A DNA stretch of 64,000 bases. It comes from Escherichia coli O127:H6 str. E2348/69. Its GTDB lineage: Bacteria > Pseudomonadota > Gammaproteobacteria > Enterobacterales > Enterobacteriaceae. Below the pieces are notes generated by a model. It saw only the letters and a program-made list of their open reading frames with translations, was not told where the DNA came from and made no database searches. The stretch is taken from assembly GCF_000026545.1 (NCBI RefSeq), contig NC_011601.1. One strand, written 5' to 3'. The first letter of the stretch is position 1. Each line of letters begins with the position of its first letter. This document shows positions 31,368 through 50,078 of the stretch, in pieces. Made by a program: the position numbers and the translations under genes.

Positions 31368-31400
31368 AGGCCCGTCACCGCCAGGTGGTGGGCTTTTTTT
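31368..31400 (+). terminator. intrinsic terminator after tig
   Basis: GC-rich hairpin followed by T8. Confidence 0.65.
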
Positions 31401-31580
31401 TGTCATGAATTTTGCATGGAACCGTGCGAAAAGCCTCTTTCGGTGTTAGCGTAACAACAAAAGATTGTTATGCTTGAAATATGGTGATGCCGTACCCATA
31501 ACACAGGGACTAGCTGATAATCCGTCCATAAGGTTACAATCGGTACAGCAGGTTTTTTCAATTTTATCCAGGAGACGGAA

Positions 31581-43787: not shown

Positions 43788-47334
<3,547 letters not shown>

Positions 47335-47446
47335 ATAGCGCAATATTTCATCGTTGGTGCAAAAATGTAACGCACTGTGCACTGTCATAGTGCGTTTTCA
47401 TTTTCAATCTTCTTAACTTCCTGCTCTCTTTCTCGTTTTTCATTTC

Positions 47447-47462
47447 TGGCACACCGCTTGCA
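47447..47462 (+). promoter_or_regulatory. sigma-54 (RpoN) promoter of glnK-amtB
   Basis: exact -24/-12 consensus TGGCAC-N5-TTGCA (tggcacaccgcttgca) ~50 nt upstream of the glnK ATG. Confidence 0.8.
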
Positions 47463-47514
47463 ATACCTTCTTCGTGTAGCAGAACCATTACCGAATTCTG
47501 ACCGGAGGGGATCT

Positions 47515-47853
47515 ATGAAGCTGGTGACCGTGATAATCAAACCATTCAAGCTGGAAGACGTTCGTGAAGCGTTATCTTCCATTGGTATTCAGGGCCTGAC
47601 CGTCACCGAAGTGAAAGGTTTCGGGCGTCAGAAAGGGCATGCCGAGCTGTACCGGGGGGCGGAATACAGCGTCAACTTCCTGCCAAAAGTAAAAATTGAT
47701 GTGGCGATTGCTGATGACCAACTCGATGAAGTGATCGATATCGTCAGCAAAGCGGCTTACACCGGAAAAATTGGCGACGGCAAAATCTTCGTCGCTGAAT
47801 TGCAACGCGTCATTCGTATTCGTACCGGCGAAGCCGATGAAGCGGCGCTGTAA
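47515..47853 (+). CDS. glnK: nitrogen regulatory protein PII-2
   Basis: ORF 47377..47853; start at ATG 47515 (MKLVTVIIKPFKLEDV...) for 112 aa. Confidence 0.95.
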   Translation: MKLVTVIIKPFKLEDVREALSSIGIQGLTVTEVKGFGRQKGHAELYRGAEYSVNFLPKVKIDVAIADDQLDEVIDIVSKAAYTGKIGDGKIFVAELQRVIRIRTGEADEAAL

Positions 47854-47882
47854 TCTCTGGCACACAGCAACAGGAACGAAAA

Positions 47883-49169
47883 ATGAAGATAGCAACGATA
47901 AAAACTGGGCTTACTTCACTGGCGATGCTGCCGGGACTGGTAATGGCTGCACCTGCGGTGGCCGATAAAGCCGACAATGCGTTTATGATGATTTGTACTG
48001 CGCTGGTGCTGTTTATGACTATTCCGGGGATTGCCCTGTTTTACGGTGGGTTGATTCGCGGCAAAAACGTGCTGTCGATGCTGACGCAGGTGACGGTGAC
48101 GTTTGCACTGGTCTGTATTCTCTGGGTGGTTTACGGTTACTCGCTGGCGTTTGGTGAGGGAAACAACTTCTTCGGCAACATTAACTGGTTGATGCTGAAA
48201 AACATCGAACTGACGGCGGTGATGGGCAGCATTTATCAGTATATCCACGTAGCGTTTCAGGGATCGTTTGCCTGCATTACCGTAGGCTTGATAGTTGGAG
48301 CACTGGCGGAACGAATCCGCTTCTCAGCTGTGTTGATTTTCGTGGTGGTATGGCTGACGCTCTCCTACATTCCGATTGCGCATATGGTCTGGGGCGGCGG
48401 TTTGCTGGCTTCTCACGGTGCACTGGATTTCGCGGGTGGCACGGTGGTGCACATTAACGCCGCAATCGCCGGTCTGGTGGGCGCGTATCTGATAGGCAAA
48501 CGCGTGGGCTTCGGCAAAGAGGCGTTTAAACCGCACAACCTGCCGATGGTCTTCACCGGGACTGCCATTCTCTATATCGGTTGGTTTGGCTTTAACGCCG
48601 GGTCAGCGGGCACGGCGAATGAAATCGCAGCACTGGCATTTGTGAATACTGTGGTCGCAACGGCGGCAGCAATTCTTGGCTGGATCTTCGGTGAATGGAC
48701 GCTGCGCGGTAAGCCTTCACTGCTGGGAGCGTGTTCTGGCGCGATTGCCGGTCTGGTCGGCGTGACGCCAGCGTGTGGCTACATTGGTGTTGGCGGCGCG
48801 TTGATTATCGGCGTGGTAGCTGGTCTGGCGGGCTTGTGGGGCGTTACCATGCTCAAACGCTTGCTGCGGGTGGATGATCCCTGCGATGTCTTCGGTGTGC
48901 ACGGTGTTTGTGGCATTGTCGGCTGTATCATGACCGGGATTTTTGCCGCCAGTTCGCTGGGCGGCGTGGGCTTCGCTGAAGGTGTGACGATGGGCCATCA
49001 GTTGCTGGTACAGCTGGAAAGCATCGCCATTACGATCGTCTGGTCCGGTGTGGTGGCGTTTATTGGCTACAAACTGGCGGATCTGACGGTTGGTCTGCGT
49101 GTACCGGAAGAACAGGAGCGAGAAGGGTTGGACGTCAACAGCCACGGCGAAAATGCCTATAACGCGTAA
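47883..49169 (+). CDS. amtB: ammonium transporter AmtB
   Basis: 428-aa ORF with signal peptide, recognised as AmtB. Confidence 0.95.
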   Translation: MKIATIKTGLTSLAMLPGLVMAAPAVADKADNAFMMICTALVLFMTIPGIALFYGGLIRGKNVLSMLTQVTVTFALVCILWVVYGYSLAFGEGNNFFGNINWLMLKNIELTAVMGSIYQYIHVAFQGSFACITVGLIVGALAERIRFSAVLIFVVVWLTLSYIPIAHMVWGGGLLASHGALDFAGGTVVHINAAIAGLVGAYLIGKRVGFGKEAFKPHNLPMVFTGTAILYIGWFGFNAGSAGTANEIAALAFVNTVVATAAAILGWIFGEWTLRGKPSLLGACSGAIAGLVGVTPACGYIGVGGALIIGVVAGLAGLWGVTMLKRLLRVDDPCDVFGVHGVCGIVGCIMTGIFAASSLGGVGFAEGVTMGHQLLVQLESIAITIVWSGVVAFIGYKLADLTVGLRVPEEQEREGLDVNSHGENAYNA

Positions 49170-49185
49170 TAAGCACTGCAAAAAA

Positions 49186-49219
49186 CAGCCGGACGGTTTT
49201 CACCTCCGGCTATTTTTTT
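49186..49219. terminator. bidirectional terminator between convergent amtB and tesB
   Basis: agccgga...tccggct hairpin flanked by A6 upstream and T7 downstream. Confidence 0.75.
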
Positions 49220-50078
49220 AATTGTGATTACGCATTACCCCTTCCTGAACGGTCGAGGCAACCAGCACGCCGTCCTGAGTATAAAACTCACCGCGCACAA
49301 AGCCGCGTGCGCTGGACGCCGAGGTGCTTTCCACGCTATACAGCAGCCATTCATTCAAATTAAACGGGCGATGGAACCACATGGAATGGTCAATGGTGGC
49401 AATCTGAATCCCCGGTTCGAGAAAACCGATGCCGTGCGGCTGTAGAGCTACCGGCAGGAAATTAAGATCAGAAGCATAACCGAGCAGATACTGATGAACG
49501 CGCAGATCATCCGGCACGCTACCATTTGCGCGGATCCACACCTGACGATGCGGTTCTGCGACGTGACCTTTCAGTGGGTTATGAAACTCCACCGGACGGA
49601 CTTCCAGCGGACGATCGCAGATGAATTTATCTTTCAGCACTGGCGGCAGCAGGTGCGCCAGCGATTGGGCGATTTGCGTTTCTGAAGGCAGGCCGTCAGG
49701 CGCTGGCGCGGACGGCATTGTTTTTTGATGTTCGAAACCCGCTTCTGGTGCCTGGAAAGAGGCAGTCATATAAAAAATCGGTTTGCCGTTTTGAATAGCA
49801 GAAACCCGGCGGGCGCTGAAGCTGTTACCGTCACGCAGCGTTTCGACATCATAAATAATCGGCTTCTTACTATCGCCAGGGCGAAGAAAGTAGCTGTGAA
49901 AAGAATGTACCAGCCGCTCGTCAGGGACGGTCTCTTTTGCAGCATACAAGGCCTGACCCACGACCTGGCCGCCAAATACCTGGCGTAAACCTAAATCTTC
50001 ACTCTGGCCGCGAAAGAGTCCTTCCTCAATTTTTTCCAGATTTAACAATGTCAGTAAATTTTTTAGCGCCTGACTCAT
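49218..50078 (-). CDS. tesB: acyl-CoA thioesterase II
   Basis: ORF 49218..50162; start at ATG 50078 ([17 protein letters not shown]...) for 286 aa. Confidence 0.93.

What the first reader, a model, noticed from the sequence alone, without database searches (positions are those of the whole stretch)
47447..47462. Textbook sigma-54 promoter upstream of glnK-amtB
tggcac-accgc-ttgca matches the -24/-12 consensus TGGCAC-N5-TTGCA exactly, about 50 nt upstream of the glnK ATG. This fits the known NtrC/sigma-54-dependent expression of glnK-amtB under nitrogen limitation, and implies NtrC enhancer sites should lie further upstream, probably in 47340..47440.
Basis: partly seen in the sequence, partly recalled or inferred. 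Interest (0 to 1): 0.2.

Follow-up and report, generated by a model that had tools for sequence, protein, structure and literature searches.

The report
Known glnK-amtB sigma-54 promoter
This is the well-studied nitrogen-starvation promoter of the E. coli glnK-amtB operon, read correctly by the first stage, so it is ordinary rather than a discovery.

Summary
TGGCACACCGCTTGCA lies at 47447-47462 (+). It is the only exact TGGCAC-N5-TTGCA match in the 64 kb window (0.10 expected by chance). It ends 52 nt before the glnK ATG at 47515.

The window is E. coli O127:H6 E2348/69. The mdlB-glnK spacer differs from K-12 at one base, outside every element described here. Published K-12 data show sigma-54 ChIP-seq on exactly this 17-mer, NtrC ChIP-seq at the locus, in-vitro binding by both proteins, and loss of glnK mRNA in a glnG deletion.

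New comparative evidence agrees. In 102 of 103 distinct glnK upstream regions, fetched by a coding-sequence pattern, the -24/-12 motif is present.

A strong dyad, TGCACTGTCATAGTGCG, lies at 47378-47394 (centre -87). A conserved TGGTGCA weak or half site lies at 47355-47361.

Side observations:
- The strong site forms the 3' arm of a conserved hairpin with a T-run that looks like the mdlB terminator.
- Enhancer-promoter distance differs between lineages in steps of about 10.7 bp.
- The CCTTCTT at -7 to -1 is the published anti-Shine-Dalgarno "insulator".

Verdict: already known, low interest.

The parts
47447..47462 (+). Sigma-54 core promoter glnKp: TGGCAC (-26 to -21), N5, TTGCA (-15 to -11). 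GG at 47448-49 and GC at 47460-61.
   Evidence: Same 17-mer as the sigma-54 ChIP-seq motif OS03 in K-12 (PMC4591121). Motif present in 102 of 103 distinct glnK upstream regions.
47473..47473 (+). Predicted transcription start (+1), taking C47461 as -12. This gives a 42-nt 5' UTR.
   Evidence: Inference from sigma-54 promoter geometry. It matches 'distance 42' in PMC4591121 Table 1. Not mapped experimentally here.
47378..47394 (+). Strong NtrC dyad TGCACTGTCATAGTGCG, centre -87.
   Evidence: Only match with up to 1 mismatch to TGCACYN5RGTGCA in the window (0.78 expected, so not significant alone). A site with up to 2 mismatches lies between -160 and -60 in 85 of 99 distinct orthologous regions. 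Aligned module.
47355..47374 (+). Conserved TGGTGCAAAA-N4-AACGCA block. TGGTGCA (47355-61) is a perfect NtrC right half-site. It can be read either as a weak site TGCAAAAATGTAACGCA (47358-74, centre -107, 20 bp from the strong site) or as a half-site centred near -120.
   Evidence: Columns 1-7 and 15-20 are at least 90% conserved in 33 distinct module sequences. Which register NtrC uses is not resolved.
47369..47405 (+). Hairpin AACGCACTGTG / CATAGTGCGTT (47369-79 and 47386-96, loop 47380-85) followed by the tail TTTTCATTTTC. It resembles an intrinsic terminator for mdlB, and its 3' arm is the right half of the strong NtrC site.
   Evidence: Terminator-like hit. RNA fold of 47355-47410 gives -19.8 kcal/mol, z = -3.94. 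95% of cells are paired and 3 pairs change on both sides across 33 sequences. The hairpin plus T-run occurs in 47 of 72 regions with mdlB upstream against 2 of 30 without.
47397..47446 (+). Pyrimidine-rich (C/T) spacer between enhancer and promoter.
   Evidence: GC skew -0.53 and AT skew -0.64 at 47400-47449. Sequence.
47466..47474 (+). CCTTCTTCG. CCTTCTT spans -7 to -1 and is the published CT-rich anti-Shine-Dalgarno 'insulator' inside glnKp. It is present only in read-through RNA, not in the sigma-54 transcript.
   Evidence: Levy et al. report that the 7-nt CT-rich region centred at -4 is the element whose mutation relieves silencing (10.1101/086108). In the native fold, 47468-74 pairs with the glnK SD at P about 0.98 in read-through RNA. 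A composition-matched shuffle control gives nearly the same value.
47504..47508 (+). glnK Shine-Dalgarno GGAGG.
47515..47853 (+). glnK (PII-type nitrogen regulator), first gene of the operon.
47883..49169 (+). amtB (ammonium channel), second gene, 29 nt after glnK.
49177..49217 (.). AAAAAACAGCCGGA...TCCGGCTATTTTTTT. Bidirectional terminator-like hairpin shared by amtB (+) and tesB (-). Probable operon end.
   Evidence: Sequence. Only weak sub-threshold Rfam hits typical of terminators.

Best explanation
47447-47462 is glnKp, the sigma-54 (RpoN) -24/-12 promoter of the glnK-amtB operon of E. coli, here strain E2348/69. RNA polymerase with sigma-54 sits on it as a closed complex and cannot start on its own. 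Under nitrogen limitation NtrB phosphorylates NtrC. NtrC~P assembles on the upstream enhancer (strong dyad at 47378-47394, centre -87, plus the conserved weak or half site at 47355-47374). It contacts the polymerase by DNA looping across the roughly 50-bp pyrimidine-rich spacer, and ATP hydrolysis opens the promoter. Transcription should start near 47473 and produce a glnK-amtB mRNA with a 42-nt leader, ending at the hairpin at 49177-49217. Shown by published experiments on the K-12 promoter (one spacer substitution, at -65, outside these elements): sigma-54 occupancy, NtrC occupancy, and NtrC dependence of glnK mRNA. Shown here: the sequence, its near-universal conservation, and the conserved, helically phased NtrC site. 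Inferred: the exact start site, which bases form the weak NtrC site, and looping.
For: The window is 100% identical to E2348/69 over the 1,001-nt stretch 47000-48000 that was compared, with gene order mdlA-mdlB-glnK-amtB. In the aligned 211 nt spanning the spacer (47320-47530), the only difference from K-12 MG1655 is T47408 (A in K-12) at -65, outside all elements. The 180-bp spacer is present in 5423 of 5426 complete E. coli genomes at 95% identity or better. Sigma-54 ChIP-seq peak OS03 falls on CTGGCACACCGCTTGCA (PMC4591121). NtrC ChIP-seq peak 1 shows 39.7-fold enrichment, and glnK mRNA is not readily detected in a glnG deletion and is restored by complementation (PMC4066584). gSELEX shows binding of RpoN holoenzyme and NtrC (PMC8743547). 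NtrC activity at glnKp is 400-fold higher in ammonium starvation (PMC3870243). glnK amtB is listed as sigma-54/NtrC dependent in Salmonella (PMC4987338). The motif is present in 102 of 103 distinct orthologous upstream regions, including Enterobacter, Leminorella, Orbus, Phaseolibacter and Sutterella. Positions left free by my search pattern are also fixed: -23 C 100%, -14 T 100%, -15 T 89%. An NtrC site is found in 85 of 99 regions. Site-to-start distances cluster at -87, -97, -108, -119, -129 and -140, and the Rayleigh R peaks at 0.93 (0.86 on unique positions) at a 10.75-bp period. That is the pattern expected if the site must keep its face of the helix relative to the promoter. No sigma-70-like promoter was found in 47200-49400.
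Against: The start site was not mapped in this work, and PMC4591121 notes that EcoCyc then listed the promoter only as 'Predicted'. The primary biochemical paper on glnKp (Atkinson et al. 2002, PMC135341) could not be read, so the published NtrC site coordinates could not be compared with mine. Neither the sigma-54 match (0.10 expected) nor the NtrC match (0.78 expected) is significant on motif statistics alone. All experimental data are from K-12 or NCM3722, not from E2348/69.
Confidence: 0.97

Rival explanations
1. The site binds sigma-54 holoenzyme but is not a working promoter. It would be a poised or decoy site like the many inactive intragenic sigma-54 sites, with glnK-amtB transcribed from elsewhere.
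For: Bonocora et al. found that most of their 135 sigma-54 sites are intragenic and appear transcriptionally inactive under their conditions, and glnK was not among the genes induced by sigma-54 overexpression alone.
Against: The site is intergenic, correctly oriented and 52 nt before the ATG. An NtrC site lies at a phased, conserved distance. glnK mRNA depends on NtrC. No sigma-70-like promoter was found. Lack of induction without an activated enhancer-binding protein is expected for any sigma-54 promoter.
Confidence: 0.02
2. The match to the consensus is a chance occurrence with no function.
For: 10 of 100 shuffles of the window give one exact match.
Against: The motif is conserved in 102 of 103 distinct orthologous regions while the N5 and flanking bases vary. 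There is direct ChIP-seq on the same 17-mer.
Confidence: 0.005
3. The dyad at 47369-47396 is only the mdlB transcription terminator, and its resemblance to an NtrC site is incidental. The true enhancer would lie elsewhere.
For: A stable hairpin followed by a T-run, with covariation that preserves pairing at positions outside the NtrC 17-mer. The last base of the site is G, not the consensus A, in 32 of 33 module sequences.
Against: The TGCACY-N5-RGTGC core is conserved far beyond what a stem needs. Lineages without the T-run still keep an NtrC-consensus site at comparable distances. Distances to the promoter are helically phased, which a terminator would not require. NtrC occupies the locus in vivo. 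The two roles are compatible rather than exclusive.
Confidence: 0.03

Closest known systems
E. coli K-12 glnKp (glnK-amtB promoter, b0450)
   Same: It is the same element. The 17-mer CTGGCACACCGCTTGCA, the NtrC block, the CT-rich -7 to -1 stretch and the 5' UTR are identical, and the published ChIP-seq and gSELEX data apply directly.
   Different: One substitution in the spacer (T47408 against A in K-12, -65). The strain is the EPEC isolate E2348/69.
E. coli glnAp2
   Same: A sigma-54 promoter activated by NtrC~P from upstream dyad sites about three helical turns apart (-108 and -140; PMC1865078).
   Different: glnAp2 has two high-affinity sites plus low-affinity 'governor' sites and an overlapping sigma-70 promoter, glnAp1. 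glnKp has one strong dyad at -87 and only a weak or half site, with no sigma-70 partner. From memory of Atkinson et al. 2002, which I could not read here, this weaker enhancer is why glnK fires later, at higher NtrC~P.
glnHp2 and nac promoters (other NtrC/sigma-54 promoters)
   Same: The same -24/-12 class and the same activator, and all were used side by side by Levy et al..
   Different: glnHp2 is weak and IHF-assisted. I did not look for IHF or other bending-protein sites at glnKp.
CT-rich anti-Shine-Dalgarno insulators in sigma-54 promoters (Levy et al., bioRxiv 10.1101/086108)
   Same: glnKp is the founding example, and the critical 7-nt CT-rich region centred at -4 corresponds to CCTTCTT at 47466-47472. 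In the native sequence this stretch is predicted to pair with the glnK SD only in read-through RNA.
   Different: Their assays used a synthetic RBS and mCherry. In the native context my shuffle control shows that sequestration follows from the pyrimidine-rich composition as a whole (0.94 +/- 0.07 against 0.99 observed). It is not seen in Orbus, Phaseolibacter or Sutterella.

Membership tests
Sigma-54 (RpoN) -24/-12 promoters | GG and GC doublets exactly 10 bp apart within a TGGCAC-N5-TTGCW context | tested here: met
   TGGCACACCGCTTGCA at 47447-47462 is an exact match.
Sigma-54 (RpoN) -24/-12 promoters | Occupied by sigma-54 holoenzyme | not testable with these tools
   Published for the identical K-12 sequence: ChIP-seq OS03, FAT 18 (PMC4591121), and gSELEX with RpoN holoenzyme, 61% (PMC8743547).
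Sigma-54 (RpoN) -24/-12 promoters | Transcription starts about 12 nt after the GC and requires rpoN | not testable with these tools
   Start predicted at 47473. No mapped 5' end was found in the literature I could read, and EcoCyc status was 'Predicted' per PMC4591121.
Sigma-54 (RpoN) -24/-12 promoters | Promoter elements conserved in orthologous positions | tested here: met
   102 of 103 distinct glnK upstream regions.
NtrC-activated (Ntr regulon) enhancer-dependent promoters | Upstream dyad site(s) matching TGCACC-N5-GGTGCA, roughly 80-150 bp from the start | tested here: met
   TGCACTGTCATAGTGCG at 47378-94, centre -87, and TGGTGCA at 47355-61. 85 of 99 orthologous regions have a site with up to 2 mismatches between -160 and -60.
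NtrC-activated (Ntr regulon) enhancer-dependent promoters | NtrC binds the region and expression needs glnG under nitrogen limitation | not testable with these tools
   Published: NtrC ChIP-seq 39.7-fold, glnK mRNA not readily detected in a glnG deletion (PMC4066584), and NtrC gSELEX peak (PMC8743547).
NtrC-activated (Ntr regulon) enhancer-dependent promoters | Enhancer and promoter keep a fixed helical face when close together | tested here: met
   Site centres fall at -87, -97, -108, -119, -129 and -140. Rayleigh R is 0.93 (0.86 on unique positions) at a 10.75-bp period. Caveats: the period was scanned rather than fixed beforehand, and lineages are related.
CT-rich anti-SD insulated sigma-54 promoters (Levy et al.) | Short CT-rich motif just upstream of +1 that pairs with the downstream SD only in read-through RNA | tested here: inconclusive
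   P(SD paired) is 0.50 in the sigma-54 transcript and 0.99 in read-through RNA, but composition-matched shuffles give 0.94. Positions -6 to -2 are 74-91% pyrimidine across 102 sequences. Experimental support exists only in a synthetic context.
Rho-independent (intrinsic) terminators | Stable GC-containing hairpin directly followed by a U-run at the end of a gene | tested here: met
   11-bp stem and 6-nt loop at 47369-96, then TTTTCATTTTC, 35 nt after the mdlB stop. The T-run is longer (T8) in most other lineages.
Rho-independent (intrinsic) terminators | A transcript 3' end actually forms there | not testable with these tools
   No 3'-end mapping data were consulted. Needs Term-seq or an equivalent.

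The most novel reading that the evidence does not exclude
The enhancer of glnKp is physically merged with the end of the upstream mdlAB operon. The right half of the strong NtrC dyad is the 3' arm of a conserved terminator hairpin, which would explain why the site ends in G rather than the consensus A in 32 of 33 lineages. In addition, enhancer-promoter spacing has changed during enterobacterial evolution only in whole helical turns (-87 to -140 in steps of about 10.7 bp). Terminator, pyrimidine-rich spacer and anti-SD stretch would then form a layered insulator that keeps mdlAB read-through from expressing GlnK and AmtB. I have not seen this dual-use arrangement or the quantised spacing described, but I could not read the primary glnKp papers.
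Probability: 0.4. Interest if true: 0.3.

Novelty: already known. Interest (0 to 1): 0.08.

Why it matters
The finding confirms that the first-stage reader can recognise a sigma-54 promoter and correctly predict where its enhancer lies. It adds nothing new about nitrogen regulation. glnKp is a standard reporter of NtrC activity and a standard part in synthetic enhancer work. The comparative by-products are modestly useful for people who engineer or model bacterial enhancers. These are the terminator-enhancer overlap, the spacing quantised by helical turns across about 100 natural variants, and the test of the anti-SD insulator in its native context.

Tried and rejected
(1) I tried to read the primary papers on glnKp and the Ntr regulon: Atkinson et al. 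2002 (PMC135341 and PMC135342) and Zimmer et al. 2000 (PMC18977). None is held, so the published NtrC site coordinates and any start-site mapping could not be checked.

(2) Supplementary tables for NtrC ChIP-exo (PMC9853098) and for the Levy et al. promoter and UAS sequences are not held. The Brown et al. supplement holds only qPCR primers.

(3) I tested whether the native CT-rich stretch sequesters the glnK SD specifically. Read-through RNA does sequester it (0.99 against 0.50). Mononucleotide shuffles of the upstream 80 nt do almost as well (0.94 +/- 0.07; 20% reach the observed value). The effect is absent in Orbus, Phaseolibacter and two Sutterella lineages. I therefore do not claim position-specific insulation in the native context.

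(4) A sigma-70 promoter scan of 47200-49400 found nothing.

(5) An Rfam scan of 47000-49400 gave only sub-threshold hits, all on the amtB/tesB terminator.

(6) The TGGCAC at 47858-63 in the glnK-amtB spacer was considered as a second sigma-54 site and rejected. There is no GC at the required spacing, and it is absent from the 2-mismatch list.

(7) AGCGCCTGAATAGCGCA at -139, overlapping the mdlB stop, was considered as a third NtrC site. It has 3 mismatches and is not conserved in E. albertii, so I rejected it.

(8) The covariation count used sequences pre-selected for at least 9 of 11 stem pairs, which inflates the paired percentage. Without that filter other lineages show different architectures.

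Full report
OBSERVATION. The sequence tggcac-accgc-ttgca lies at 47447-47462 on the + strand. It is the only exact match to TGGCAC-N5-TTGCA on either strand of the window. Shuffles give 0.10 matches on average, and 10 of 100 shuffles give one. At up to two mismatches the window holds 27 matches against 27.6 expected, so only the exact match carries information, and on motif statistics alone it is merely suggestive. The ORF starting at ATG 47515 is GlnK, followed 29 nt later by AmtB. The motif ends 52 nt before that ATG.

SOURCE OF THE WINDOW. The stretch 47000-48000 is 100% identical to the chromosome of E. coli O127:H6 E2348/69. Window position equals NZ_LT827011.1 position minus 384000. The annotated gene order is mdlA, mdlB, glnK, amtB, tesB (opposite strand), ybaY, then an ISEc13 copy. 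The 180-bp mdlB-glnK spacer is present in 5423 of 5426 complete E. coli genomes, always at 95% identity or better and at 99% or better in 4416. Compared with K-12 MG1655 it differs at one base (T47408; A in K-12), which lies in the spacer at -65.

PUBLISHED EVIDENCE.
- Bonocora et al. mapped sigma-54 by ChIP-seq in MG1655. They list intergenic peak OS03 with the motif CTGGCACACCGCTTGCA, fold-above-threshold 18, and a predicted start 42 nt before glnK. They mark it as a promoter that EcoCyc then listed as predicted, not experimentally confirmed (PMC4591121). The same 17-mer lies at 47446-47462.
- Brown et al. list glnK-amtB as NtrC ChIP-seq peak 1 (39.7-fold) in nitrogen-starved cells. They show that glnK mRNA is not readily detected in a glnG deletion and returns on complementation (PMC4066584).
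- Shimada et al. find the mdlB/glnK spacer in gSELEX with RpoN holoenzyme, with NtrC, and with both together (PMC8743547).
- Schumacher et al. use glnKp as the simple reporter of NtrC activity, 400-fold higher in ammonium starvation (PMC3870243).
- A Salmonella review lists glnK amtB as sigma-54 and NtrC dependent (PMC4987338).
The element and its mechanism are therefore textbook knowledge.

INDEPENDENT COMPARATIVE TEST. I retrieved glnK loci with a degenerate pattern for the first 16 codons of glnK, which says nothing about the promoter. This gave 13 loci from reference genomes and about 120 from metagenomes. Of 103 distinct 200-nt upstream regions, 102 carry TGGCA[CT]-N5-TTGC[AT] 54-141 nt before the ATG, mostly 66-72 nt. 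The set includes Enterobacter, Leminorella, Orbus, Phaseolibacter and the beta-proteobacterium Sutterella. Positions my search pattern left free are also fixed: -23 is C in 100%, -14 is T in 100%, -15 is T in 89%, and -11 is only A or T. The N5 bases vary. The single exception (L088) is an E. coli-like contig at 1.7x coverage with a 1-bp deletion in the N5. It is probably an assembly or sequencing error.

THE ENHANCER.
- TGCACTGTCATAGTGCG at 47378-47394 is the only match with up to 1 mismatch to TGCACY-N5-RGTGCA in the window. With 0.78 expected, it is not significant alone.
- Taking C47461 as -12, the start is 47473 and the site centre is -87.
- In 85 of 99 orthologous regions with enough upstream sequence, a site with up to 2 mismatches lies between -160 and -60.
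- In the enterobacterial lineages the whole block TGGTGCAAAA-N4-AACGCAC-N2-TGCACY-N5-RGTGCG-T(5-8) is conserved.
- TGGTGCA (47355-61) is a perfect right half-site. It could belong to a weak site centred at -107 (TGCAAAAATGTAACGCA, 20 bp from the strong site) or to a half-site near -120 (33 bp away, like the -108/-140 pair of glnAp2). I cannot decide between these registers.
- My recollection of Atkinson et al. 2002, which I could not read here, is of one high-affinity site and an adjacent low-affinity site. That fits either register.

HELICAL PHASING. Among sequences that carry this module, the strong-site centre falls at -86/-87, -96/-97, -107 to -109, -116, -119, -129 and -139 to -141. The Rayleigh concentration peaks at a period of 10.75 bp, with R = 0.93 for 49 distinct sequences and 0.86 for the 13 unique positions. 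The period was scanned rather than fixed beforehand, and the lineages are related, so this is descriptive. It is still what face-of-the-helix dependence of a close-range looping activator predicts. It ties the dyad functionally to the promoter without any experiment.

OVERLAP WITH A TERMINATOR-LIKE HAIRPIN.
- The simple terminator scan reports AACGCACTGTG-CACTGT-CATAGTGCGTT at 47369-47396 followed by TTCATTTTCA, 35 nt after the mdlB stop.
- As RNA, 47355-47410 folds at -19.8 kcal/mol, z = -3.94, and no shuffle does as well.
- The 3' arm is the right half of the strong NtrC site.
- Across 33 distinct module sequences, 95% of cells in the 11-bp stem are paired and three pairs change on both sides (22-35: C-G 25, U-A 6; 24-33; 17-40). 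At most 1 of 500 shuffles reaches this, and slid registers do much worse.
- Column 40, the last base of the NtrC site, is G in 32 of 33 sequences although the NtrC consensus is A. In the one lineage where it is A, its stem partner has changed from C to T.
- The hairpin plus T-run occurs in 47 of 72 regions with mdlB upstream and in 2 of 30 without.
- Caveat: those 33 sequences were chosen for at least 9 of 11 pairs. Other lineages use other geometries. In some the NtrC dyad itself plus a T-run forms the hairpin. In others two sites 20 bp apart form one long inverted repeat without a T-run.
- I regard a dual terminator/enhancer role as likely but unproven.

THE CT-RICH STRETCH. Levy et al. found that a 50-bp glnKp fragment silences translation of a downstream gene on read-through transcripts, independently of rpoN. 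By mutagenesis of 123 variants they mapped the effect chiefly to the 7-nt CT-rich region centred at -4 (10.1101/086108). That region is CCTTCTT at 47466-47472.

In the native sequence, read-through RNAs pair 47468-74 with the glnK Shine-Dalgarno region CGGAGGG (47503-09) at probability about 0.98. A transcript starting at 47473 leaves the SD about 50% paired. Positions -6 to -2 are 74-91% pyrimidine across the 102 sequences.

The control weakens the claim. Shuffling the upstream 80 nt, which keeps its pyrimidine-rich composition, still gives 0.94 +/- 0.07. The effect is absent in several distant lineages. The native-context evidence is therefore compatible with the published insulator but does not establish a position-specific element.

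VERDICT. The feature is the already known glnKp promoter. No sigma-70-like promoter and no Rfam family compete for the region. Still untested are the exact start site and the biochemical register of the weak NtrC site. Interest is low. The only mildly new material is the terminator-enhancer overlap and the spacing quantised by helical turns.

Noticed in passing
window 50876-52459: The ISEc13 (IS4-like) copy has IS50-type ends (CTGTCTCTTGATCAG) at about 50893 and 52442. It sits inside a palindrome, TAACCCTCTCCGCCCGG / CCGCCCGGAGAGGGTTA, with CCGCCCGG present on both sides. It appears to have inserted into the loop of a terminator-like hairpin between ybaY and the MGMT-family gene.
   Followed up: partly
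window 31400-31416 (+): TTGTCATGAATTTTGCA in the tig-clpP spacer is a second published sigma-54 ChIP-seq site (Bonocora OS02, FAT 5, 154 nt before clpP). It deviates at the -24 element (GT instead of GG) and directly follows a T-run terminator of tig.
   Followed up: partly
L014 2685-2868 (minus strand), Escherichia sp. E1V33: A 184-bp segment replaces most of the pyrimidine-rich spacer between the NtrC site and the -24 element, moving the strong site from -87 to about -232. Its 140-bp core is a dispersed intergenic repeat with a median of 15 copies per E. coli genome. The net shift of +145 bp is not a whole number of helical turns.
   Followed up: partly
L088 (metagenome contig, 1.7x coverage): An E. 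coli-like glnK upstream region reads TGGCACACGCTTGCA, a 1-bp deletion in the N5 spacer that would destroy the -24/-12 register. It is either a sequencing error or a natural promoter-null allele.
   Followed up: no
L050, L054, L099, L116 and similar metagenome loci: A different enhancer architecture upstream of glnK. Two NtrC-like sites 20 bp apart (centres -162 and -142) together form one long inverted repeat, TGCACTCCTTTG...CAAAGGAGTGCA, without a following T-run.
   Followed up: no
window 49177-49217: The convergent genes amtB and tesB share a hairpin flanked by an A-run and a T-run (AAAAAACAGCCGGA...TCCGGCTATTTTTTT). It looks like a bidirectional terminator and produces weak sub-threshold Rfam hits.
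   Followed up: partly
window about 9600 (ribD/ribH spacer) and about 19500 (panE/yajQ spacer): Shimada et al. list NtrC gSELEX peaks in the ribD/ribE and panE/yajQ spacers of K-12, both of which fall inside this window. No sequence check was made here.
   Followed up: no
window about 55843-56395 (-): maa (maltose O-acetyltransferase) is annotated as a frameshifted pseudogene in E2348/69.
   Followed up: no
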